Positions 9,441 through 62,328 of a DNA stretch of 64,000 nucleotides are shown here, piece after piece. The notes under the pieces were generated by a model. It saw only the letters and a program-made list of their open reading frames with translations, ran no database searches and was not told the origin of the DNA. The position numbers were made by a program, and so were the translations under genes. The DNA is from an uncultured Alphaproteobacteria bacterium (lineage in GTDB: Bacteria; Pseudomonadota; Alphaproteobacteria; UBA7879; VGCX01): contig CAJXSI010000002.1 of assembly GCA_913061155.1 (NCBI GenBank), forward strand, positions 1,167 to 65,166. The letters are read 5' to 3'. How positions within the stretch are numbered: position 1 is the first letter of the stretch; every line of letters starts with the position of its first letter.

Positions 9441-10071
9441 GGCCTATGCCCCCAGCTTTGAATTTGAATCAAAATTTAATGGCATTGTGGCAGGTGTTGA
9501 CGAAGTAGGCATCGGGTCATGGGTTGGTCCCGTGATGGCGGCGGCAGTCATTCTTAAACCAGGGGTTTCCAAAGATATTTTGCAAAATCTGCAAGACTCC
9601 AAAAAATTATCCACCCCAAAACGGAATTTTATTTATCATCAGTTGTTAAAGTGTCCCCACGTTATTTATGGTATTGGGCAGGCAAGCGTTGATGAGATAG
9701 AGGCCTTGAATATTCGCCAGGCCACCTTTTTGGCCATGTCCCGCGCGGTCGATGCGTTGGGTGTAAAACCAGACGCCGCCATTGTGGATGGAAAGGCGCG
9801 CCCAATTTTGCCGTGCCCGATTCAAATGGTTATTAAGGGGGATCAACGAAGTTTTTCCATCGCGGCCGCGTCCATCATTGCCAAAGTAACACGGGATCAA
9901 TTTATCAAGGACTTGGCTGAAAAATTCCCAGAATATGGTTGGGATAAAAATGCAGGCTATGGAACACAAAAACATCGCGACGCCCTTAATAATCAAGGTG
10001 TAACTGACTTCCATCGCAAGGGATATGCGCCGATTGCAAGGCTTCTATGCCCAGAAAGACTTGAAAATTAA
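9388..10071 (+). CDS. rnhB: Ribonuclease HII. The start is uncertain. The ORF is open from 9310, and the ATG at 9388 overlaps the antiporter 3' end.
   Basis: …GIVAGVDEVGIGSWVGPVMAAAVIL… and …SIAAASIIAK… catalytic motifs. Confidence 0.75.
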   Translation: MGIKLPKQLNVNSEKSPKAYAPSFEFESKFNGIVAGVDEVGIGSWVGPVMAAAVILKPGVSKDILQNLQDSKKLSTPKRNFIYHQLLKCPHVIYGIGQASVDEIEALNIRQATFLAMSRAVDALGVKPDAAIVDGKARPILPCPIQMVIKGDQRSFSIAAASIIAKVTRDQFIKDLAEKFPEYGWDKNAGYGTQKHRDALNNQGVTDFHRKGYAPIARLLCPERLEN

Positions 10072-10205
10072 GGGTTTTCTTGTTTTTTCGCCTTGAATTA
10101 TTGTTGGCATCCTCTTACATTATCCGTTGAATAATCATTTTATCATGTAAAAGTAATTTTACTATTGGGCAATCAAAAACGTCGAAACGAAAGGAAACTT
10201 AAGAA

Positions 10206-10964
10206 ATGAAGAAAATTTTAATGTGTACAGCTGCGGCAACCATGCTTGCAGGATCCGCCTTTGCAGATAACGGCGCTTACGTTGGTTTTGGCCTTGGGAA
10301 TACCTTTGCGAATATATCAAATAAAACAAATGCCTCAGCTTATGATGTAGATACAGGCAAAACTGAATATCACTCTTTTGGTAACAGAAGATTAAAAGAT
10401 AAAACAGGAACTACAGGAAAATTATATGCAGGGTATGAATATGAAATGCAAGAATTTTCATTGCTTTTTGAAGGTGGATATACCCTTGATACTTCTGAGG
10501 CTGAATATGGAAATGAAACCAGTGGTGAAAACAATCTGGAATTAGATGGAACACCATCTTCTGTCGGGCCTGATGACAGTGATCCCGTTATTACTTCTAT
10601 GAAGTTAAAAAGAAACCACATTGTTTCTGTTGGAATGGGGATAAAAAAGGAAGTGGCCGCGAAATTTTCTGTAATGGGTGGTTTGGACCTTTTACATAGT
10701 CAATTTAAATTCCAAAGTAAAGGGACGGCTGATTACACGACAGGTGTTAACTCTGTTGTTAAGAAGAAATCTAAGTTTGGACTGGCACCGTGGGTTGGAA
10801 TGTCCTGGGATGCAGGAATTGTTGAAGCAGGATTAAGATATCAATATTCCAGATATCAACAGTTGAAAACTGGCGGGGATTATACTCCAAACAAGTTTAA
10901 CATCGCCAATAAAATCAAACCTGAATACCATACAATTATGGTAACAATTTCAAAGAAAATATAA
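10206..10964 (+). CDS. Outer-membrane beta-barrel-type protein, paralog A. Same family as 23361-24098.
   Basis: SD AAAGGA. Signal peptide …AGSAFA|DNG. About 45% identical to the 23361-24098 product, with shared blocks …YHSFGNRRLK…GKLYAGYE…KFGLAPWVG…AGLRYQYSRYQ…KPEYHTIMVTISKKI. Confidence 0.6.
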   Translation: MKKILMCTAAATMLAGSAFADNGAYVGFGLGNTFANISNKTNASAYDVDTGKTEYHSFGNRRLKDKTGTTGKLYAGYEYEMQEFSLLFEGGYTLDTSEAEYGNETSGENNLELDGTPSSVGPDDSDPVITSMKLKRNHIVSVGMGIKKEVAAKFSVMGGLDLLHSQFKFQSKGTADYTTGVNSVVKKKSKFGLAPWVGMSWDAGIVEAGLRYQYSRYQQLKTGGDYTPNKFNIANKIKPEYHTIMVTISKKI

Positions 10965-10991: not shown

Positions 10992-12065
10992 ATGAAAAAT
11001 ATAAAAACAATTCTTTTAGGCGCATCGATGCTGATGTCATTAAATTCAATAGCAACACAATACAATAGCTATGATGAATTACCGGCTAAAGCAAAAAGAA
11101 GGGCAATTAAGTGCGCAACTGTAGTTCCAGAATACCAAGGTATTACGCCTGAACAAGTTGCACGCAATTTTGGTTGGATAGTCGGAGAGGCTATTCCTAA
11201 AAATGATGCAGAAGCACGTGAAAGGTTGAGAACAGCTGCCGCCGCAGCAAGAACAGCTGCCGCCGCAGTTGCTGCCGCTGCTCAACCAGTAGCAGGAGCT
11301 CCAGGATCAACAAGATCAGCATTGCGTTCAGCATCTGCAGAATCAGATTCAGAGGACGATGCACAAGCAGGAGCAGGAGCTCCAGGATCATCACGGTCTT
11401 CAGTAGCCTCAGGAGCAGGAGCTCCAGGATCAGCAAGAACAGCAGCCGGCGGTAGAACTCCAGGATCATCACGGCATTCAGCCGCCACAGGTAGGCCAAC
11501 TTTAGCATCACGGCTAGCAGCAGAAGCAGCAGAACCAGATAGCCATGAATCAGGCTACTCTGTTGCAAGGCTTCCTAGTGATTTGGAGGGTATCATTCTT
11601 GACCTTGACGCGGGAAATCCTATAAAAATATGGATGGGAAGTAATTCTATTACGATGGATGATCTAGGCAAAGCCTATGGTAAATTAACAGGTTCGGATA
11701 AAGATAAGCGTGAAAAACTTGCCCAGGTTTTAAATGCATTTGCCGCGGCGAGTGGAACTGAAGGCTTTCTCGAAGATATGCTAAATGCTTGTGCTTGTCT
11801 AGAAGGTGCCGCAGCAGCAGCCGCAGCTCCAGCCGATGAAACTCCAGCAGCCGCCGCTGGCAATGGGACAAAGCCAACATGGGCTACTGTTGTCGCTCCA
11901 CCAGAAGGTGCAGCAGCCGGCGCAGCCGCAGCTCCAGCAGCTTCACCAGCAGCAGCCGCAGCAGCTCCAGCTCCAGCTCCAGCCGATGAAACTCCAGCAG
12001 CTTCAGAAGGTGGTGCAGATGGCGCAGCAGTAGGCGATAGAACTCCAAAAGGAAAAGGAAAATAA
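10992..12065 (+). CDS. Secreted low-complexity, tandem-repeat protein. GC-rich Ala/Gly/Pro/Ser core and a Lys-rich tail.
   Basis: SD AAGAGG. Signal peptide MKNIKTILLGASMLMSLNSIA. Repeats GAGAPGS(x)RS… at nt ~11280-11480 and a duplicated APADETPAA unit (11823-11851 and 11970-11998). Ends …RTPKGKGK. A rho-independent terminator follows. Confidence 0.65.
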   Translation: MKNIKTILLGASMLMSLNSIATQYNSYDELPAKAKRRAIKCATVVPEYQGITPEQVARNFGWIVGEAIPKNDAEARERLRTAAAAARTAAAAVAAAAQPVAGAPGSTRSALRSASAESDSEDDAQAGAGAPGSSRSSVASGAGAPGSARTAAGGRTPGSSRHSAATGRPTLASRLAAEAAEPDSHESGYSVARLPSDLEGIILDLDAGNPIKIWMGSNSITMDDLGKAYGKLTGSDKDKREKLAQVLNAFAAASGTEGFLEDMLNACACLEGAAAAAAAPADETPAAAAGNGTKPTWATVVAPPEGAAAGAAAAPAASPAAAAAAPAPAPADETPAASEGGADGAAVGDRTPKGKGK

Positions 12066-52266: not shown

Positions 52267-52626
52267 ATGGCTTATGATAAAAACAACATTTTTGCAAAAA
52301 TCATTCAGCGAGAAATTCCCTGTGATAAGGTTTATGAAGATGATTTTTCTTTGGCCTTTCGCGACATATCCCCTAAGGCAAAAATTCATGTATTGGTGAT
52401 TCCAAAAGGCATGTATACAGGCTTTGATGACTTTACTGATAACGCATCGGATAAGGAAAAAGTCGGATTTTCCACGGCTGTTTCCAAAGTTATTAAACAG
52501 TTAAATTTATCAGAAAAGGGGTGCCGCCTTATTTCAAATTTAGGCAACGATGGTGGGCAAGAAGTTCCCCATTATCACGTGCATATTTTAGGGGGCGAAA
52601 CACTGGGGGCGTTGATTGGAAAATGA
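52267..52626 (+). CDS. HIT-family (histidine triad) nucleotide hydrolase
   Basis: …VPHYHVHILGG… HxHxHxx motif. Confidence 0.8.
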   Translation: MAYDKNNIFAKIIQREIPCDKVYEDDFSLAFRDISPKAKIHVLVIPKGMYTGFDDFTDNASDKEKVGFSTAVSKVIKQLNLSEKGCRLISNLGNDGGQEVPHYHVHILGGETLGALIGK

Positions 52627-54203
52627 TGAAAAAAATATTTTTTATAGTAATATTCTTAGGCTTATCCTTTAAGTCATTTGCTGTTATCGAAACAGAAGAT
52701 ATCGGCGGTATCAACCCAGAAACAGTTGGGGTCAATACGTATGATACAAAATTTATTCCAACAGATCTTTGGGAAGGGCTTTCGCATACACAAGTTGTCC
52801 GGCTTATCAAAAATTTACCGACGAAATTTAAAAATAATTTTTGGACCCGCCTGCAAATATCTTTGCTTTTGTCCCCTATGAAAGTGCCTGAAAATAAAAC
52901 TGGTGAAAATAATATTTTCAATTTAAGATTTGAAAAACTGCTTGATATGGAAGCAGTTGACCAGGCTTATAATCTTGGGAAAAATCATGCGGATCAATTG
53001 GATGAAGATAGTTGGGCATGGTGTCAATTTATACATTTTCTGATTCATAATAATTATGATAAGGCCTTCAGTATTGCACAGGAATTTGCCTTAAAAGACA
53101 AGGATAACAAATGGCAACATGCGGTTATCACAATGCAATTATTGATGGGGAAAGATGACCAGGCTAACTTAAGTTTATCTTTGCTTGAAAAAGAAAATAA
53201 AAAACAAGATCATCATTTTATCAAAACCATCAAACAAATTCAGGCAGGGGAAAAAATCAAAGGCACTGAACATTCACCCCACCGTCCATTGATCATTAAA
53301 TTGATGGTATCTAAAAATATTATTCCTGAAGATATGAGTATTGAATCCATGTCAGATGACATCATTTTAATGATGATATTGGATCCTGGGTTTGAAAAAT
53401 TTTCAGATCGAATGAAGTTATCAATTCTTGAATATTATACAGAACAAAGTACACATAAGCCGCAATTATTAAAAGATCATTATCTGAAATTGGCAACAGA
53501 AGATCTGGTGAAAGAGGCTACTCAGAAAATTTCCAATAAAGAATATGATAAAGAAAATGATCCGTTAATTCGGGCGGCTTTGTATAAAATATTTGTTGAT
53601 TCAGAAGGCGAAGAAATAAAGAAAATGGCTTTTTCTGCTTTTTACAAAAATGCTTATGCAAATAAAATTTTAACGGTGGCGGTTGCTTGTTTTGGTAACG
53701 ATTATAATTATCCTGCTGCCGCTTATGACAAAGATTATTCCTTTGCGTTTGTTCTGCATAATTTAATGTTGCAAAACAAAAGCCAAATGAAGGCTTGGGT
53801 TGAAGGGTTGAATCAGGAAGAACTTTCTGAATTATCTTTGATTCTTCTTGCAAGTTGTAACTTGGATTATTTTTCAGGGGAAACACAAGAACATTTGATG
53901 GAAAACGTAAAAAAAATATATTTAGAACCTGCAAAAAAATTCTTATTTAAAGAGAAACTAAAGTTTTTACATAACGTTTCGTCCCCCTTTAAATTATCAG
54001 ATAGTCGTTTGATTGATGTCATTTCAGGGCAGTATGGTTTTGGGGCAGGTTTATCCATTCTTCTTAGTTCATCACAGTCCATATTATCAACAGATGTCTG
54101 GCAGGCTGCTGTTCAACTTCGTGTTTTAGAAGCCCTTAAACTGAAAAACCAGGCAACACAACTGCGACAGCTTTATGCTTATTCTTCTGCCAAGGATGAA
54201 TAA
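52623..54203 (+). CDS. Large secreted hypothetical protein (~526 aa), likely all-alpha
   Basis: The ATG overlaps the HIT stop (ATGA). Signal peptide MMKKIFFIVIFLGLSFKSFA. No recognisable motifs. Confidence 0.5.
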   Translation: MMKKIFFIVIFLGLSFKSFAVIETEDIGGINPETVGVNTYDTKFIPTDLWEGLSHTQVVRLIKNLPTKFKNNFWTRLQISLLLSPMKVPENKTGENNIFNLRFEKLLDMEAVDQAYNLGKNHADQLDEDSWAWCQFIHFLIHNNYDKAFSIAQEFALKDKDNKWQHAVITMQLLMGKDDQANLSLSLLEKENKKQDHHFIKTIKQIQAGEKIKGTEHSPHRPLIIKLMVSKNIIPEDMSIESMSDDIILMMILDPGFEKFSDRMKLSILEYYTEQSTHKPQLLKDHYLKLATEDLVKEATQKISNKEYDKENDPLIRAALYKIFVDSEGEEIKKMAFSAFYKNAYANKILTVAVACFGNDYNYPAAAYDKDYSFAFVLHNLMLQNKSQMKAWVEGLNQEELSELSLILLASCNLDYFSGETQEHLMENVKKIYLEPAKKFLFKEKLKFLHNVSSPFKLSDSRLIDVISGQYGFGAGLSILLSSSQSILSTDVWQAAVQLRVLEALKLKNQATQLRQLYAYSSAKDE

Positions 54204-55131: not shown

Positions 55132-56058
55132 TCATCGTAATGCGACTTCCAGTCTTTCAAGAATGGTGATGGTAAGGCTAGCATGAACAACATAATGAAA
55201 AAGGCGAACTTTCCAACCATTATACAGGCCGCTGATTCCGTATTTTCGGTAAAGATCCTGCATGGCTTTGAACAGGCGCGTACGTCCACTGGTTGTGTTT
55301 TTTTGTTGCTGGGTTTTAACGCAGTCAAAGGGCATAATAAACAAAGTATTTATAATTCCTACAAGAATACTGATGATAAATAAAATCCAAAAATCCAATG
55401 GCCCATCCGTTTCAAAATGTTTACGGGCGCTGCCTCTGAAAAAATCATCCGCCACTAAAAAAGTTATCCAAGATACCATTTGTTTTACATATACAGGGCG
55501 AAGTCCTGCCATAAGTTGAAGGCCTAAGCCCTTTCTGTTTTTTGTAAAAAAGTAAAGCAAGCCCCTTTTGCTTTTGTAATGTGTCATCAGCCAAACTTTG
55601 ATCCGTTCAAGGGGCGTGATGATAAAGCATTCAAAATTGGCAATGATAATGGCAGATACCAATTTATTCATTTCAGACCGCTTAAAAACTTCCAAAGATT
55701 CCAGCCCCAAAGGAATAAATAACATCATTGGCCACCGATAGATTTGTTTGATGACAACACGCAGGGTGTTGGGGATGTATCCCCGATAAAATCCCATCAG
55801 GCCATTACTGCGATAGATGTTTTTTGTAACAGCCAGGGCGCTATGGTTGTTGGGCAAGGCCTGCATATTTGTTTTAATACAATCCAAAGGATGTTCAAGA
55901 GGCAGGGCAAGCGCCCCGCGGACGGCGCCATAAAAACTGACCTTTGCGTATTGGTCCCACGTAAAACTTTTGGCAACGCAAGGTTTGGGGGGCAGGACAA
56001 TAAAGGTCAATAAAAATATAAAAATTCGATATTTCTGCATGGTGCCTAAACATATCAC
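55132..56058 (-). CDS. Mitochondrial carrier family (MCF/SLC25-like) transporter
   Basis: Three tandem ~100-aa repeats, each with an odd-helix Px[DE]xx[KR] signature (PLDCIK, PLERIK, PFDCVK). Each is followed by the G..G…YRG/GL.P motif (…GFYRGYIPNTLR…, …GLGLQLMAGLRPVYVKQ…, …GISGLYNGWKVRL…). Confidence 0.75.
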   Translation of the reverse strand: MICLGTMQKYRIFIFLLTFIVLPPKPCVAKSFTWDQYAKVSFYGAVRGALALPLEHPLDCIKTNMQALPNNHSALAVTKNIYRSNGLMGFYRGYIPNTLRVVIKQIYRWPMMLFIPLGLESLEVFKRSEMNKLVSAIIIANFECFIITPLERIKVWLMTHYKSKRGLLYFFTKNRKGLGLQLMAGLRPVYVKQMVSWITFLVADDFFRGSARKHFETDGPLDFWILFIISILVGIINTLFIMPFDCVKTQQQKNTTSGRTRLFKAMQDLYRKYGISGLYNGWKVRLFHYVVHASLTITILERLEVALR

Positions 56059-56078: not shown

Positions 56079-56489
56079 CTATTGCCTAAGGATGCCCATT
56101 AACGTTTCGTTAAGATTTTGAATTTTATCTTCTTTGAAGAATTCTGTGTGGTTTTTTGCGGCTATTTTATAGGCTTGGGCCAGCGTATCTTTTCCCAAAT
56201 CAGTTAAAACAGGGTATCTGGATTTATTGTTTTCTTTGCGGTGAATGCGTTCAATCATGCCTTTTGACTCAAGCTTTCGCAAAGATTGGGATGTTACGTT
56301 AACATCAGTGCGACAATACTTTGAAAGATCTTTCTGGCGTACATGGCATTTATTTTGGGCAAAGCGATCCAACCCGGCCATTAAAATAAATTGAACCTGG
56401 CTGATATTTAAAGGGGTTAAGCTGTTTTCAGTTTTCTTATTCCAGGCATTGGCCACTTGCCAAAGCAGATAACCTGTATTTTTTTCCAT
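56079..56489 (-). CDS. MarR-family transcriptional regulator
   Basis: 136-aa winged-HTH (…QKDLSKYCRTDVNVTSQSLRKLESKGMIERIHRKENNKSRYPVLTDLGKD…). Confidence 0.7.
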   Translation of the reverse strand: MEKNTGYLLWQVANAWNKKTENSLTPLNISQVQFILMAGLDRFAQNKCHVRQKDLSKYCRTDVNVTSQSLRKLESKGMIERIHRKENNKSRYPVLTDLGKDTLAQAYKIAAKNHTEFFKEDKIQNLNETLMGILRQ

Positions 56490-56502
56490 TATATCACCAT
56501 AT

Positions 56503-56518
56503 AATATGTATACATATT
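56503..56518. promoter_or_regulatory. Perfect 16-bp palindrome AATATGTATACATATT, 14 nt upstream of the marR start. Candidate MarR operator.
   Basis: Exact dyad symmetry, in the divergent promoter region between marR and the symporter. Confidence 0.4.
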
Positions 56519-56928
56519 ATTTTGCCATGGTTTGGACAGATGTAAAGTCTTTTTTCAAAAATCCTACTTAGCTATGGGACTTTTAATAAACTTTTATTTC
56601 ACCGCGATGGTCGTATTGGAAAAAATATGCAGAGAAATAATAATCATGCAGGGGAATAATAAAAAACCTCATATTATCCTCTTTTTCTTACAGTTCTCTC
56701 TCATTCAAAAAAGAAGTAGAAAAAGGCTGGCTTGACTTTTGTTCGTTGGCACAGCATATTAAGGGTATGACTAACCTAAAAAACATAATTGAACTTATCT
56801 TCAGCAACTACGTTGTAGCTGCTGCCCATACCCCTGTCCACCACGCGGCATAGTGCTGCGTTTCTTTTTATATCTCTATTTATATTTTTAATTTTACAAC
56901 TTTAATTTTTCAAAAAAGGAAAAGTGTT

Positions 56929-59415: not shown

Positions 59416-60454
59416 TTATCTTATTTCCTTCGTAATAAAGCCCAGAGGCAATGGCAAAAGATTTATAAATTTCTGGAATTCCTAAATCATCATACATTGA
59501 ATATTTTGTGTTTAAGCTTATTAAAAAATGTTCCGTTGTTAAGACTTTTGTTTTAACGGCTTTTTCTTGAATAATTTCCAAGACAAGTTGGGCCGTATTT
59601 TTTCCTTCAGATAAAGAAGATGTTGATACAGACAGGGGGACGCCATCTTTTGAATTTGTTTCATATAAACCAATGACGGGGATGGCCGAATTTTTAACTG
59701 TCCAAGAAATAACATCTTTAGAAGAAACAATCGTATTATCTGTCATTGATGTTTTCAGGTTCCTGTAATTTGACAAAAAGATAAAATCAACCTCAGCCAG
59801 GTGGTTTAGCTTTTTGACAGATTCCTTCCATTCTTCAAAGGTATCAACCATGATTGAATCTGTTAAAACATGGGGATCCCATGAATGGGTTAAGATAAAC
59901 TTATCATCCACTTTCATTAAGGTAGTTTGATCCCCAATGGAGGCAAGCTTCAGGCTTTTTTTGTTTTTCTTTAGGCTGGATAAAACTTTCTTAACATCAT
60001 TTAACGGAAATTGTTCTTGAACGCCTGAAACATTTTTTGCATTTGTATAGTCATAAGAAGAAGGATCCTTGATTTTTGCATAGACAAGGCTGATATGGGG
60101 GTTGCCAATATAGTTTTTCCCCACATATTCTTGTGCTTCCTCGCCAACGGCGACGATGACTTCTGGTTTTAGATCCTCAATAATATTTTCTGCAGATATT
60201 CCTGATGAAACTTTATAACGTTCAGATTGTTTATTTAACGTGTTCATAAAATAATTTAAGATAGAAGGATTCTTATCATGTTGAAGCTTTTTTAAAAACC
60301 CTTTGTTAAAGGCACGGACAGAAGACAGCGTCGTATCATAACTATGAATAATAATAATTCTGGGCCGGTTTAAGTTATAAGATAAAATAAACCAAAAAAT
60401 AACCAGAATCAGTATTCCCTTAACAATAAAAAATCTTTTTTTAATCATCATCAT
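59396..60454 (-). CDS. Periplasmic substrate-binding-like protein (type-I PBP fold / 'ABC_sub_bind'-like). The start is the ATG overlapping the upstream TGA.
   Basis: N-terminal anchor MMMIKKRFFIVKGILILVIFWFIL, then …RIIIIHSYDTTLSS… alternating beta/alpha pattern. Family assignment is tentative. Confidence 0.45.
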   Translation of the reverse strand: MMMIKKRFFIVKGILILVIFWFILSYNLNRPRIIIIHSYDTTLSSVRAFNKGFLKKLQHDKNPSILNYFMNTLNKQSERYKVSSGISAENIIEDLKPEVIVAVGEEAQEYVGKNYIGNPHISLVYAKIKDPSSYDYTNAKNVSGVQEQFPLNDVKKVLSSLKKNKKSLKLASIGDQTTLMKVDDKFILTHSWDPHVLTDSIMVDTFEEWKESVKKLNHLAEVDFIFLSNYRNLKTSMTDNTIVSSKDVISWTVKNSAIPVIGLYETNSKDGVPLSVSTSSLSEGKNTAQLVLEIIQEKAVKTKVLTTEHFLISLNTKYSMYDDLGIPEIYKSFAIASGLYYEGNKINGKYKL

Positions 60455-62328
60455 AGGCTTAATAATCCTATTGATTTCCAATAGGGCAAACTTAAATAGA
60501 TAGCTGCCAACTTTAATAAGTTAAGAATCGCATTTAAGGTTAAAACAGAACGTTCTTTAAAGGGATGATTTTTCATTAAAACAAATCGAAAGTTTGAATA
60601 TTCGGGTGATTGAAAAGGAAAGTAAAAAGATTCGCCAAAAATTAAAATAATGAAGGCCATAATCCAGGGGGATATTCCAATTGTTTGGGCAATCGGAATA
60701 AGGATGGACCCAAAAATAAAAATTGTGGGGCCTTTGGGCATAACAAAACGGGTTAAGGTAATTAAGACGAATAAAATCGCAATCGTTTTATTGAAATTGC
60801 CTAAGATATAATTTCCAACAAATTCAAGTTTATCTGAAATCATGTGCAATAGGCCAATATGATTGGCTGTGGATAGCAATCCCGTTAACCCTGCCAGATA
60901 AACCAACTCTGTCCAGTTGATGTCAGTATTAAACCCATCGCGTCGGATGAAACTGAAAGTTAAAAATGTTGACATGACAAGCAAGGCAATGGTTTCAGGA
61001 TTAATTCGATGATACCGAGATGTCGCCATGCCAATAAAACAGATCAGGGTTCCCACCGCGGCAGCCCATTCATAAGAAGTTGGGGGACCCAAGGTTTCAA
61101 GCTGCCGGGAAATCAGGGTTTTTGACAATTTTATTTTTGTGAACCCCCGCATTAGAATGGCCATGGCAATAGAATGCAGAACAATTAAAATAAGGGCTGT
61201 GACGAAGGATGCCTTAAGCCAACCCATCCATTGGAATTGCGCCTGATATTGTCCCCAGAATAATCCAAGTAATACATAATTGCGTACAGAACTACTAAGA
61301 AAAGAAGGGCCTAACAACGTAACGCTTTGCAACGCATTGGCAACAACAACAGTCCACATCTTTTCTTTGTAATGAAGGCGTAAGGTGGCATACGCATCTT
61401 TTACAAAAGAGGCCGATAAGTTAACCCTGTTTGTCATATCAGGAACAGTAGGCGTCAGAATCGACCCCAGGGTAAACATGGACATGTTAACCAAAATATT
61501 ATTCTTAGGCACCTTATTTAACAAATTTAATAAGATCCTATAAAGTAACCCAGAAGACATAATAATAGCGGCAATTCCAAAGATACCAAGGGCCATGATA
61601 AAGGTTCTGGACGAAAATCCAGATAAAATAACTTTGGGATCTGTTAACCCAATCCCCAAGCTGATCAACAAGGCGAAGATAGATGGGATGAATTCAGGAA
61701 CCAACCGGAATGCCCATGTTATAAGGGTTCCAGATAAAATACATAAAAATAACTTTTGTTTTATTTGGAAATCGTAATAATTCCCCAAAACATAAAATAA
61801 AATAATGGGCGTTAAAATGGCCAAAATCCATCCGAATAAGTAAATGTTTTCATTAAAAGGAAGGTCGACTTTTTTCTTTCGGATACCTTTTTCAGGTTTC
61901 TGCTGAAATTTTCTTGTGAATTCACGCGAAAAATTCAAAATTAATTCATTCAACATTTTCCGATCATTTTTGACAAGCTGAATTAAATCATATTTATGAA
62001 TTCTTGCAACTGTTACATCCTGGGATGTTGCCGTGGCTGTTCCAATATAATCTTTTTGATCCAGGGCACATTCTTCACCAAAAAGCATGCCTTCTTTTAA
62101 AGGAATAATTTGGTCTTTTATTTTAAGATTTATGGCGCCTTCAACCAAGAAATATAAAAAGTCAGCTTCTTTCGATGGGCGTGTGATCAGTTGATTTCTT
62201 TTATAAGTATGTAGGGAAAATAGGGCGATTAAGCGTGCTTTTGATCCTTGGGGAAGGACAGAGAAAGGACCTAATTCATTTTGGACTATTCTTTTTATTT
62301 TCTTTAAGCATCTGCTTTCAATCGTCAT
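60451..62328 (-). CDS. Cyclic-nucleotide-binding domain fused to a multi-TM anion permease (ArsB/NhaD/SLC13-like superfamily)
   Basis: N-terminal cNMP-binding fold with …GMLFGEECAL… and …ATATSQDVTVARI…. About 12 further TM segments. Confidence 0.65.
   Translation of the reverse strand: MTIESRCLKKIKRIVQNELGPFSVLPQGSKARLIALFSLHTYKRNQLITRPSKEADFLYFLVEGAINLKIKDQIIPLKEGMLFGEECALDQKDYIGTATATSQDVTVARIHKYDLIQLVKNDRKMLNELILNFSREFTRKFQQKPEKGIRKKKVDLPFNENIYLFGWILAILTPIILFYVLGNYYDFQIKQKLFLCILSGTLITWAFRLVPEFIPSIFALLISLGIGLTDPKVILSGFSSRTFIMALGIFGIAAIIMSSGLLYRILLNLLNKVPKNNILVNMSMFTLGSILTPTVPDMTNRVNLSASFVKDAYATLRLHYKEKMWTVVVANALQSVTLLGPSFLSSSVRNYVLLGLFWGQYQAQFQWMGWLKASFVTALILIVLHSIAMAILMRGFTKIKLSKTLISRQLETLGPPTSYEWAAAVGTLICFIGMATSRYHRINPETIALLVMSTFLTFSFIRRDGFNTDINWTELVYLAGLTGLLSTANHIGLLHMISDKLEFVGNYILGNFNKTIAILFVLITLTRFVMPKGPTIFIFGSILIPIAQTIGISPWIMAFIILIFGESFYFPFQSPEYSNFRFVLMKNHPFKERSVLTLNAILNLLKLAAIYLSLPYWKSIGLLSL

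What the first reader, a model, noticed from the sequence alone, without database searches (positions are those of the whole stretch)
55132..56058. Eukaryote-type mitochondrial carrier family (MCF) transporter in a bacterial chromosome
The protein has the full tripartite MCF architecture. Three ~100-aa repeats each carry Px[DE]xx[KR] (PLDCIK, PLERIK, PFDCVK) followed by a G…YRG/GL.P motif. MCF proteins are essentially eukaryotic. The few bacterial cases, such as the Legionella effector LncP, are in intracellular bacteria and are thought to be host-derived. Codon and GC usage look native, so the acquisition is probably old. A ~35-aa hydrophobic N-terminal extension precedes repeat 1. The gene lies beside a marR regulator and xerD. 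This supports an intracellular lifestyle and suggests either nucleotide/metabolite parasitism or an effector targeted to host mitochondria.
Basis: partly seen in the sequence, partly recalled or inferred. Interest (0 to 1): 0.75.

Follow-up and report, generated by a model that had tools for sequence, protein, structure and literature searches.

The report
Signal-peptide mitochondrial-type carrier in an alphaproteobacterium
A marine alphaproteobacterium carries a genuine mitochondrial-type carrier gene with a bacterial export signal, and its relatives in other bacteria sit in vitamin B1 salvage operons, so it most likely works in the bacterium's own membrane and not as a toxin sent to host mitochondria.

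Summary
Window 55132-56040 (-) encodes a 302-aa protein; the real start is ATG 56040, not GTG 56058. It has three Mito_carr repeats (117.7 bits against a cutoff of 22.3), three intact Px[DE]xx[KR] motifs and a confident six-helix carrier fold that matches only mitochondrial carriers.

The gene is native to the chromosome. It keeps the same slot (marR-like, MCF, xerD, atp operon) in three species and is under purifying selection (ω about 0.09).

It is not LncP-like:
- It belongs to a distinct subfamily (100% bootstrap) shared by alveolates (Paramecium, Tetrahymena, Vitrella, Chromera) and MAGs labelled Holosporaceae, Parachlamydiaceae, Gammaproteobacteria and others.
- In at least four clades of that subfamily the carrier is fused to thiamine pyrophosphokinase or sits in operons with it and with thiM/thiE/thiD/tenA.
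- The window protein and several relatives carry a Sec-type signal peptide. Its matrix-side loops hold 22 K+R against 1 D+E, which fits insertion into the bacterium's own inner membrane in the mitochondrial orientation.
- Contact point II is K-Q, not the nucleotide type.

Best reading: a MarR-regulated inner-membrane carrier, probably for a thiamine-related compound. The substrate is unproven, and the window holds no thiamine genes.

The parts
55132..56040 (-). MCF (SLC25-type) carrier gene: 302 codons plus the TGA stop at 55132-55134. The start is ATG 56040. The GTG at 56058 listed by the ORF finder is probably not used.
55972..56040 (-). Predicted Sec-type signal peptide, aa 1-23 (MQKYRIFIFLLTFIVLPPKPCVA|KS): K/R n-region, an 11-residue hydrophobic core (mean Kyte-Doolittle 3.35), and small residues at -3/-1.
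   Evidence: AF2 gives a separate helix at 2-15 and pLDDT below 50 at 21-23. Only 33% identical to the sister species but hydrophobicity is kept. Cleavage is inferred, not shown.
55687..55959 (-). Carrier repeat 1 (aa 28-118): H1 with PLDCIK plus Q60, a matrix helix, and H2 with contact point I R94 and the invariant K98, Y101 and R102.
55402..55686 (-). Carrier repeat 2 (aa 119-213): H3 with the subfamily signature PLERIKVWLMT, and H4 with contact point II K186-Q187, invariant W191 and the only canonical cytoplasmic-gate pair, D199..R202.
55135..55401 (-). Carrier repeat 3 (aa 214-302): H5 with PFDCVK plus Q246, and H6 with R279, contact point III H282, Y283 and E295..E298.
56079..56489 (-). 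Divergent MarR-family winged-helix regulator (136 aa). It lies 38 nt upstream of the MCF gene on the same strand with no terminator between them, so the two are probably one operon. The pair is conserved in L001 and L025.
56501..56520 (.). Perfect 20-bp palindrome ATAATATGTATACATATTAT just 5' of the marR-like start codon. It is unique in the window, identical in L001 and 18/20 in L025 while the flanks diverge. Candidate MarR operator.

Best explanation
The gene encodes a functional mitochondrial-carrier-family transporter that an uncultured marine alphaproteobacterial lineage has made its own. It belongs to a distinct MCF subfamily that is shared by alveolate protists and many, mostly host-associated, bacteria.

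Inferred mechanism:
- A cleavable Sec signal peptide places the N-terminus in the periplasm.
- The six helices then insert into the bacterial inner membrane in the same orientation as in mitochondria: the cytoplasmic side of the carrier faces the periplasm, and the strongly positive matrix-side loops face the bacterial cytoplasm.
- With an intact matrix gate but a weak cytoplasmic gate, it probably acts as a facilitator or uniporter, not a strict exchanger.
- Its cargo is most likely a thiamine-pathway compound: thiamine itself trapped by pyrophosphorylation, ThMP/ThDP, or a carboxylated or phosphorylated precursor.
- Expression is probably controlled by the upstream MarR-like repressor through the conserved palindrome.

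Shown: family membership, fold, subfamily monophyly, synteny, purifying selection, and the link to thiamine pyrophosphokinase (TPK) and thiamine-biosynthesis (thi) genes in other members.
Inferred: signal-peptide cleavage, membrane location and orientation, transport mode, substrate, and regulation.
For: Family and fold.

Native and selected:
- The gene lies mid-contig in a 124-kb bacterial contig and was recovered in several independent assemblies.
- The same slot is kept in three species.
- gyrB and the MCF gene appear to lie on the same contigs in sister species, judged from matching contig lengths.
- dN 0.098, dS about 1.1. Composition is native.

Subfamily:
- Profile scores run 470 to about 180 bits for members and 126 bits or less for generic MCFs.
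- 100% NJ bootstrap against generic MCF outgroups.
- R94, K98, Y101 and W191 are invariant and R102 nearly so (52/53); the window protein keeps all of them.

Thiamine link:
- TPK-MCF fusions in two clades whose carrier domains are only 38% identical.
- TPK adjacent or one gene away in L002/L014, L005, L006, L007, L017/18 and L019.
- thiM/thiE/thiD/tenA, a ThiBPQ-like ABC system, ThDP enzymes, and HAD and NUDIX genes in the same clusters.

Own-membrane reading:
- Signal-peptide-like leaders in 17 of 194 subfamily members and 0 of 39 generic MCFs.
- m-side K+R/D+E is 22/1 against 8/8 on the c-side.
- LncP must avoid Sec/YidC.
- A regulator gene lies upstream here and in L024, and the operator-like palindrome is conserved.

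Weak c-gate and uniport: with PMC7611774.
Against: - The window and the flanks I could see contain no TPK or thi gene, so the thiamine link is transferred by homology only. The window genus is a long separate branch, at most 46% identical to other members.
- No TPP riboswitch was found in the window or in 11 related loci.
- Contact point II [RK][QSN] resembles carboxylate carriers, not the G[IVLM] of known ThPP carriers.
- The cavity is rich in R/K, which fits an anion better than cationic thiamine.
- Signal-peptide cleavage is judged from simple rules, not a trained predictor or an experiment.
- Most subfamily members, including the TPK fusions, lack a leader, so orientation may differ between members.
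- L003 (Parachlamydiaceae) has effector-like neighbours, a protein kinase and a Fic protein.
Confidence: 0.55

Rival explanations
1. It is an inner-membrane carrier used by the bacterium itself, but for a substrate unrelated to thiamine, for example a di- or tricarboxylate or 2-oxo acid, or a MarR-controlled efflux substrate. On this reading the window lineage diverged in function from the TPK-linked members.
For: Contact point II is K-Q, in the R[QHNT] carboxylate class. Automatic annotations of relatives name citrate, 2-oxodicarboxylate or ornithine carriers. There are no thi genes near the window gene in three species. MarR regulators often control efflux genes (my own knowledge). TauD, transketolase and other 2-oxo-acid enzymes recur near relatives.
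Against: All subfamily-invariant cavity residues are retained. Contact point III is H/Q, whereas SLC25 carriers nearly always have a positive residue there, so the site is not a standard carboxylate site either. The dominant and repeated genomic signal in the subfamily is TPK and thi genes, including two independent fusions.
Confidence: 0.25
2. It is an LncP-like effector that is exported to a eukaryotic host and inserted into the mitochondrial inner membrane to tap or perturb host metabolism.
For: The only experimentally characterised bacterial MCF works this way. The subfamily occurs in MAGs labelled Holosporaceae and Parachlamydiaceae and on a contig with Ank/F-box proteins. L003 has effector-like neighbours. 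The subfamily has native alveolate members, so host import machinery would recognise it.
Against: A strongly hydrophobic Sec-type leader would commit the protein to SecYEG, the opposite of what LncP needs. No secretion system lies in the 64-kb window or the flanks. The gene is co-linear with a MarR-like regulator and, in relatives, sits inside metabolic operons with ABC importers and biosynthetic enzymes. The binding site is not nucleotide-type. The nearly acid-free m-side loops (22 K+R, 1 D+E) look like adaptation to the bacterial positive-inside rule.
Confidence: 0.12
3. It is an artefact: eukaryotic DNA mis-assembled or mis-binned into a bacterial contig, or a decaying pseudogene.
For: MCFs are overwhelmingly eukaryotic. 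One relative (L006) has a broken reading frame.
Against: The identical protein is on at least five contigs from different assemblies and sources, flanked on both sides by bacterial housekeeping genes. Synteny holds in three species. The ORF is intact, composition is native and purifying selection is strong.
Confidence: 0.02

Closest known systems
LncP (Legionella nucleotide carrier protein) and the other reported bacterial MCFs (L. longbeachae Llo1924, Llo3082, Llo1358; two in Neorickettsia sennetsu), PMC3252375
   Same: A bona fide three-repeat MCF encoded in a bacterial genome, presumably of eukaryotic origin.
   Different: LncP is a Dot/Icm-translocated ATP carrier that must bypass Sec/YidC. 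This protein has a Sec-type leader and a non-nucleotide contact point II (K-Q), sits in an alphaproteobacterium behind a MarR-like gene, and belongs to a subfamily tied to thiamine genes. Direct sequence comparison with LncP was not possible because I had no LncP sequence. Whether Llo3082, Llo1358 or the Neorickettsia proteins belong to this subfamily remains open.
Mitochondrial thiamine pyrophosphate carriers Tpc1p / SLC25A19 / DmTpc1p
   Same: An MCF functionally paired with thiamine pyrophosphokinase. In eukaryotes TPK acts on the cytosolic side and the carrier moves ThPP inward. The cytoplasmic network is weak, which is compatible with uniport.
   Different: Not orthologous. Candida TPC1 scores only 59 bits and falls in the outgroup. 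Known ThPP carriers have the nucleotide-type G[IVLM] at contact point II, whereas this subfamily has [RK][QSN], and contact point III is H/Q instead of R/K.
Alveolate 'carrier proteins' of unknown function (Tetrahymena thermophila XP_001019963, Paramecium spp., Vitrella CEL95658, Chromera A0A0G4HLB8)
   Same: Same MCF subfamily and the same signature residues. These are the closest eukaryotic relatives.
   Different: They are nuclear, intron-bearing genes without a signal peptide, about 36-40% identical, and uncharacterised.
PnuT/TPK-type vitamin uptake by facilitated diffusion plus metabolic trapping (from my own knowledge; not checked in the library)
   Same: A small facilitator encoded next to TPK. 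Phosphorylation of the imported vitamin would drive net uptake, which fits the adjacent and fused TPK and the weak cytoplasmic gate.
   Different: An unrelated fold and family. The analogy is functional only, and it does not explain the leader-bearing TPKs in L014 and L019.

Membership tests
Mitochondrial carrier family (SLC25 / Pfam PF00153) | Three tandem ~100-aa Mito_carr repeats above threshold | tested here: met
   117.7 bits against a cutoff of 22.3, with three stretches
Mitochondrial carrier family (SLC25 / Pfam PF00153) | Px[DE]xx[KR] on H1, H3 and H5 (matrix gate), with Q braces | tested here: met
   PLDCIK, PLERIK, PFDCVK; Q60 and Q246. Nearly invariant across 53 subfamily members
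Mitochondrial carrier family (SLC25 / Pfam PF00153) | Six-TM three-fold pseudo-symmetric bundle with three matrix helices | tested here: met
   AF2 pLDDT 88.7, pTM 0.82. Foldseek against the PDB returns only MCFs, TM up to 0.79
Mitochondrial carrier family (SLC25 / Pfam PF00153) | [FY][DE]xx[KR] cytoplasmic network on H2, H4 and H6 (typical, with variable strength across SLC25) | tested here: inconclusive
   H2 has no charged pair, H4 has D199..R202, and H6 has E295..E298 (acid/acid). Weak networks do occur in accepted members such as TPC
Mitochondrial carrier family (SLC25 / Pfam PF00153) | [quoted passage not shown] | not testable with these tools
   The gene is bacterial and chromosomal. 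Its location has to be determined experimentally
LncP-type T4SS-translocated MCF effector | Avoids Sec/YidC; no N-terminal signal peptide | tested here: not met
   Sec-like leader with n-, h- and c-regions. The requirement is stated in PMC3252375
LncP-type T4SS-translocated MCF effector | Nucleotide-type binding site / ATP transport | tested here: not met
   Contact point II is K186-Q187, not G[IVLM]. Transport itself was not tested
LncP-type T4SS-translocated MCF effector | Host genome encodes a Dot/Icm or other translocating secretion system | not testable with these tools
   None lies in the 64-kb window or the flanks, and the rest of the genome was not available
LncP-type T4SS-translocated MCF effector | Sequence orthology to LncP/Llo1924 | not tested
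   No LncP sequence was available. No Legionella-named protein is among the best 120 profile hits
ThPP carriers (Tpc1p / SLC25A19) | Clusters with TPC and has nucleotide-type contact point II G[IVLM] | tested here: not met
   Candida TPC1 scores 59 bits and falls in the outgroup. Contact point II is [RK][QSN]
TPK-linked alveolate/bacterial MCF subfamily (unnamed; defined here) | Monophyly with the subfamily, and the signature EHP[LF]D, R94/K98/Y101/R102, PLER[IL]KVWLMT and W191 | tested here: met
   100% bootstrap. All signature residues are present
TPK-linked alveolate/bacterial MCF subfamily (unnamed; defined here) | Fusion to, or operon with, thiamine pyrophosphokinase or thi salvage genes | tested here: not met
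   No TPK hit in the six-frame window, L001, L008 or L025. The feature is met in L002/14, L004, L005, L006, L007, L017/18, L019, P0183 and P0246
MarR family (the upstream 136-aa gene) | MarR-type winged helix above family threshold | tested here: inconclusive
   Pfam MarR scores 21.8 bits against a cutoff of 24.6. There are full-length but sub-threshold NCBIfam matches to BilQ, OhrR, SlyA and MarR. A conserved palindrome lies upstream

The most novel reading that the evidence does not exclude
A mitochondrial-carrier-family protein has been naturalised as a true bacterial inner-membrane transporter. It has acquired a Sec signal peptide that reproduces the mitochondrial orientation (N-terminus out, matrix side in), and it is inherited vertically in a marine alphaproteobacterial genus. 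It would be part of a widespread, undescribed thiamine-linked MCF subfamily. In some members the thiamine pyrophosphokinase is fused to the cytosol-facing N-terminus, and in others the kinase carries its own export leader. That would mean that at least some of these bacteria handle vitamin B1 the way a mitochondrion does: the kinase works outside and the carrier brings the product in. A far less likely extension (at most 3%) is that such alphaproteobacterial carriers are ancestral to SLC25 and not derived from it.
Probability: 0.4. Interest if true: 0.85.

Novelty: new variant of a known kind. Interest (0 to 1): 0.72.

Why it matters
Bacterial MCFs are known almost only as Legionella effectors that work in host mitochondria. 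A carrier that has gained a bacterial signal peptide, is vertically inherited and works in the bacterium's own membrane would be a different evolutionary outcome of host-to-symbiont gene transfer. It would also be a practical tool: an MCF that naturally expresses in a bacterial membrane.

The repeated fusion and operon linkage with thiamine pyrophosphokinase and thi salvage genes gives a directly testable substrate hypothesis for a whole orphan SLC25 subfamily, including uncharacterised carriers of Tetrahymena, Paramecium and chromerids. It would also add a new class to the known bacterial vitamin B1 transporters.

Finally, it bears on the open question of whether SLC25 has any prokaryotic history. 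A 2026 preprint still describes the family as lacking known prokaryotic homologues.

Tried and rejected
- **TPK in the window.** I searched the six-frame translation with an HMM built from five TPKs and found none. There is also none in L001, L008 or L025.
- **TPP riboswitch.** Rfam found none in the window or in 11 related loci. The first attempt exceeded the size limit.
- **Second MCF copy in the window.** None.
- **Viral origin.** The signature pattern is absent from IMG/VR, and BFVD gives fold-level hits only at 12-20% identity.
- **AFDB50 fold search.** Unavailable, so I obtained no UniProt organism names for structural neighbours.
- **Direct comparison with LncP, Llo1358, Llo3082 and the Neorickettsia MCFs.** Not possible, because I had no sequences.
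- **Promoter and terminator scan.** Hit counts are not above the shuffled expectation, so no promoter is claimed.
- **Co-variation of leaders on MCF and TPK.** I tested this on two more leader-bearing members, but their contigs carry no TPK, so it rests on one lineage only.
- **Closest characterised carrier.** All PDB carriers match equally weakly, at E about 1e-16 to 1e-18, so none can be named.
- **Literature.** Searches for bacterial MCFs linked to thiamine, Holosporales, Holospora or Paramecium found nothing relevant.
- **Submitter's taxon label.** The 'Rhizobiaceae' label on L001 is not backed by the GyrB neighbours and I did not adopt it.
- **Lipoprotein signal.** Rejected: there is no lipobox before C21.
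- **Mitochondrial presequence.** Rejected: the leader is hydrophobic, not amphipathic and basic.
Full report
**1. Observation**

The ORF finder lists 55132..56058 (-), 308 aa from a GTG. All homologs begin six codons later. The ATG at 56040 has an AGG 7-9 nt upstream, so the gene is 55132-56040 and encodes 302 aa.

- Pfam Mito_carr matches with E=1.8e-34 and 117.7 bits (cutoff 22.3) in three stretches.
- AlphaFold2 on a 53-sequence alignment gives pLDDT 88.7 and pTM 0.82. It shows six long helices (28-61, 88-115, 122-153, 180-209, 217-247, 276-301) and three short matrix-side helices.
- Foldseek against the PDB finds only mitochondrial carriers (UCP1 TM 0.76/0.79, then AACs and Tetrahymena carriers) before the list turns to noise.

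**2. Setting**

The window is ordinary chromosome near the replication origin. It holds dnaN-recF-gyrB, priA, tilS, ftsH, glmM, lpxC, a PBP1 gene, kdsD-lptCAB-hpf, atpHAGDC, xerC and xerD, an AcrAB-type pump and many solute transporters.

- The identical MCF protein lies on at least five contigs from ENA, NCBI, Logan and Tara Oceans assemblies, the longest 123,984 bp.
- GyrB places the organism among uncultured Alphaproteobacteria. Two congeners are 89% identical, unnamed MAGs are 73-75%, and free-living Rhodospirillales (Dongia, Hypericibacter, Magnetospira, Nisaea) are 67-69%.
- The slot SSF, marR-like, MCF, xerD, a 526-aa hypothetical, HIT and atpC is kept in L001 (79% MCF identity) and L025 (76%).
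- Composition is native: GC 0.413 against 0.402, with GC3 and codon distance inside the range of the other membrane-protein genes.
- Against L001 the carrier region has dN 0.098 and dS about 1.1.

So the gene is old, vertically inherited in this genus, and under purifying selection. Nothing in the 64 kb indicates an intracellular lifestyle.

**3. Which MCF**

A word-indexed search found only seven relatives. A profile search found about 85 proteins scoring 470 to about 180 bits, followed by a drop to generic MCFs at 126 bits or less. An exhaustive phmmer search of 1.84 billion representatives gave 95 hits at E ≤ 1e-30 out of 4,343 MCF hits.

- In NJ trees with 200 bootstraps the subfamily is monophyletic against generic fungal and protist carriers (100%). 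The window genus is its own long branch (100%). The backbone inside the subfamily is unresolved.
- Bacterial members include MAGs labelled Holosporaceae, Parachlamydiaceae, Gammaproteobacteria and Proteobacteria.
- True eukaryotic members include Paramecium (intron-bearing, nuclear context), the Tetrahymena and Vitrella clusters and Chromera.
- Bdelloid rotifers (Rotaria) carry several intronless copies among intron-bearing genes, which looks like a secondary transfer.
- All solved carriers match equally weakly, at E about 1e-16 to 1e-18, so there is no close characterised relative.
- NCBIfam has no model for the protein.

**4. The thiamine link**

Gene neighbourhoods of bacterial members are consistent across loci.

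- **L014 (Holosporaceae MAG):** tenA, thiD-tenA, TPK, an ATP-grasp-like gene, MCF, a hypothetical, a ThDP-dependent enzyme, a ThiBPQ-like ABC system, HAD and NUDIX.
- **L019:** thiM, thiE, thiD-tenA, TPK, a hypothetical, MCF, a hypothetical, a ThDP enzyme, an ABC system and a thiL-like gene, beside a MobA/MobL relaxase.
- **L017/L018:** transketolase, then TPK, MCF and TauD.
- **L004:** a TPK-MCF fusion followed by thiM, thiE, thiE and thiD.
- **L005:** a thiM-thiE fusion, TPK, MCF, a second MCF and TauD.
- **L006 and L007:** TPK beside the MCF gene.
- **A 36-kb JGI contig:** an MCF near a TPK-containing gene, an E1 dehydrogenase, a DAO (possibly thiO-like) gene and thiC-thiS-thiG-thiDE-thiF.

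Pfam confirms two fusion proteins: P0183 (TPK_catalytic plus Mito_carr) and P0246 (TPK_catalytic, TPK_B1_binding and Mito_carr). Their carrier domains are only 38% identical and have different nearest neighbours, so the fusion arose at least twice. Five of the seven loci from the species-level genome scan have TPK fused to the MCF gene or within two genes of it.

thiM, thiD and thiE plus a HAD phosphatase and TPK make up the yeast- and plant-style route ThMP to thiamine to ThPP (PMC9311062). The L017 TPK is slightly closer to human and mouse TPK1 (E 3e-6) than to a bacterial TPK (E 4e-3).

Three points weaken the link. No TPP riboswitch was found in any locus. The window genus has no thi or TPK gene in the regions I could see. 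L003 (Parachlamydiaceae) has a protein kinase and a Fic protein as neighbours instead.

**5. Binding site and gates** (302-aa numbering, 53-sequence alignment)

- **Matrix gate:** complete and nearly invariant.
- **Contact point I:** R94 (53/53), with K98 and Y101 also invariant and R102 nearly so (52/53) on H2.
- **Contact point II:** K186-Q187 in the window; [R43/K10][Q33/S13/N4] across the subfamily. W191 is invariant.
- **Contact point III:** H282 (Q24/H21 across the subfamily), whereas SLC25 carriers nearly always have a positive residue there.
- **Cytoplasmic gate:** weak. H2 has no charged pair, H4 has D199..R202, and H6 has E295..E298.

The reviews state three relevant rules. G[IVLM] at contact point II marks nucleotide and cofactor carriers, including the ThPP carriers. 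R[QHNT] marks carboxylate carriers. Weak cytoplasmic networks permit uniport, as in TPC. So this subfamily is not a TPC ortholog and not a nucleotide carrier. If it carries a thiamine compound, it does so with a new kind of site.

**6. The N-terminal extension**

The window protein starts MQKYRIFIFLLTFIVLPPKPCVA|KS. This has a basic n-region, an 11-residue core with mean Kyte-Doolittle hydropathy 3.35, and small residues at -3/-1.

- AF2 models it as a separate helix (residues 2-15), followed by a low-confidence linker with pLDDT below 50 at residues 21-23.
- Between species the leader is 33% identical but stays hydrophobic, while the carrier is 84% identical. That is how signal peptides usually evolve.
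- A simple n/h/c-region rule flags 17 of 194 full-length subfamily members and 0 of 39 generic MCFs. The flagged members fall in several lineages, with leaders such as ...LSVGLSWA|STE...FCYCAQA|MED and ...NINVYA|MQQ.
- The matrix-side loops of the window protein hold 22 K+R and 1 D+E, against 8 and 8 on the other side. This positive-inside bias is stronger than in the eukaryotic members.

A leader that puts the N-terminus in the periplasm, together with positive matrix loops in the cytoplasm, reproduces the mitochondrial orientation in a bacterial inner membrane. The LncP paper argues that LncP must escape SecYEG/YidC to reach the T4SS. A Sec leader does the reverse.

In the one lineage where both can be seen (L014, L019), the TPK also carries a leader of about 25-30 aa. 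In five systems where the MCF has no leader, the TPK has none either. This rests on a single evolutionary event, so it is suggestive and not statistical. An exported TPK remains unexplained unless the periplasm of a cytosol-dwelling symbiont contains host ATP.

**7. Regulation**

The 136-aa gene 38 nt upstream on the same strand gives full-length but sub-threshold MarR-family matches. No terminator-like site lies between the two genes. A perfect 20-bp palindrome, ATAATATGTATACATATTAT (56501-56520), sits just before its start codon. It is unique in the window, identical in L001 and 18/20 in L025, while the flanking DNA has diverged. This looks like an autoregulated MarR-MCF operon, which is typical of a transporter the bacterium uses itself. 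Another leader-bearing member (L024) follows a GerE-type regulator.

**8. Verdict**

- The LncP, nucleotide-parasitism and effector reading is not supported.
- The most likely mechanism is a Sec-inserted inner-membrane facilitator for a thiamine-pathway compound under MarR-type control (confidence about 0.55).
- The main rival is the same location with a non-thiamine, carboxylate-like substrate (about 0.25). An effector role is about 0.12, and an artefact about 0.02.
- I found no description of this subfamily, its signal peptides or its TPK linkage in the searchable literature, though that library is incomplete.
- I rate it a new variant of a known kind, with interest 0.72.

Noticed in passing
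window 10992-12065 (+): A 357-aa ORF with GC 0.50 but GC3 of only 0.22. It encodes an Ala/Gly/Ser/Pro-rich low-complexity protein with a Sec-like leader (MKNIKTILLGASMLMSLNSIA|TQ). It has no Pfam or NCBIfam match and is the compositional outlier of the window.
   Followed up: partly
L014 4090-4893 and L019 8045-8848: These thiamine pyrophosphokinases carry signal-peptide-like leaders of about 25-30 aa (MMKKITGLIVGVFLTANGA|VE and MKKIFGETLRKKLFGLIVCGILSANGA|AE) in the same operons as leader-bearing MCFs. A predicted extracytoplasmic ATP-dependent kinase is unexpected.
   Followed up: partly
L011/L012 8001-8882 (Rotaria sp. contigs): Bdelloid rotifer assemblies hold several intronless copies of this MCF subfamily among intron-bearing eukaryotic genes (VASt, TPR, sulfate transporter). 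This looks like horizontal transfer into rotifers.
   Followed up: partly
L006 9983-10880: The MCF homolog is split into two overlapping ORFs (9983-10444 and 10383-10880). It is either a frameshifted pseudogene or an assembly error.
   Followed up: no
L005 8674-9768, L017 10867-11931, L020 11686-12708, L023 2037-3158: A TauD/TfdA-family Fe(II)/2-oxoglutarate dioxygenase recurs directly beside subfamily MCFs in four loci, twice with transketolase nearby. Its role with respect to thiamine or the carrier's substrate is unknown.
   Followed up: no
L005 7752-8639 and L020 10876-11727 (also L020 19996 onward): Some bacteria carry a second, very divergent MCF paralog (about 23-28% identical) immediately after the subfamily member, and L020 has a third next to a NUDIX gene. 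So MCF gene families have expanded inside bacterial genomes.
   Followed up: no
window 60451-62328 (-): A DASS-family sodium:anion symporter with an N-terminal cyclic-nucleotide-binding domain, which is an unusual regulatory fusion. It is conserved in L008 and L025.
   Followed up: no
window 52623-54203 (+): A 526-aa protein with a signal peptide and no family match lies between the HIT gene and xerD. It is conserved in L001 and L025.
   Followed up: no
L019 1-3224: A MobA/MobL relaxase lies next to the thiamine-salvage and MCF cluster, and IS-type transposases flank the clusters in L014 and L017. The cluster may move on mobile elements.
   Followed up: no
L025 8333-9519: The third species has two extra small genes (213 and 173 aa, no Pfam match) inserted between the SSF transporter and the marR-like gene. 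The window and L001 lack them.
   Followed up: no
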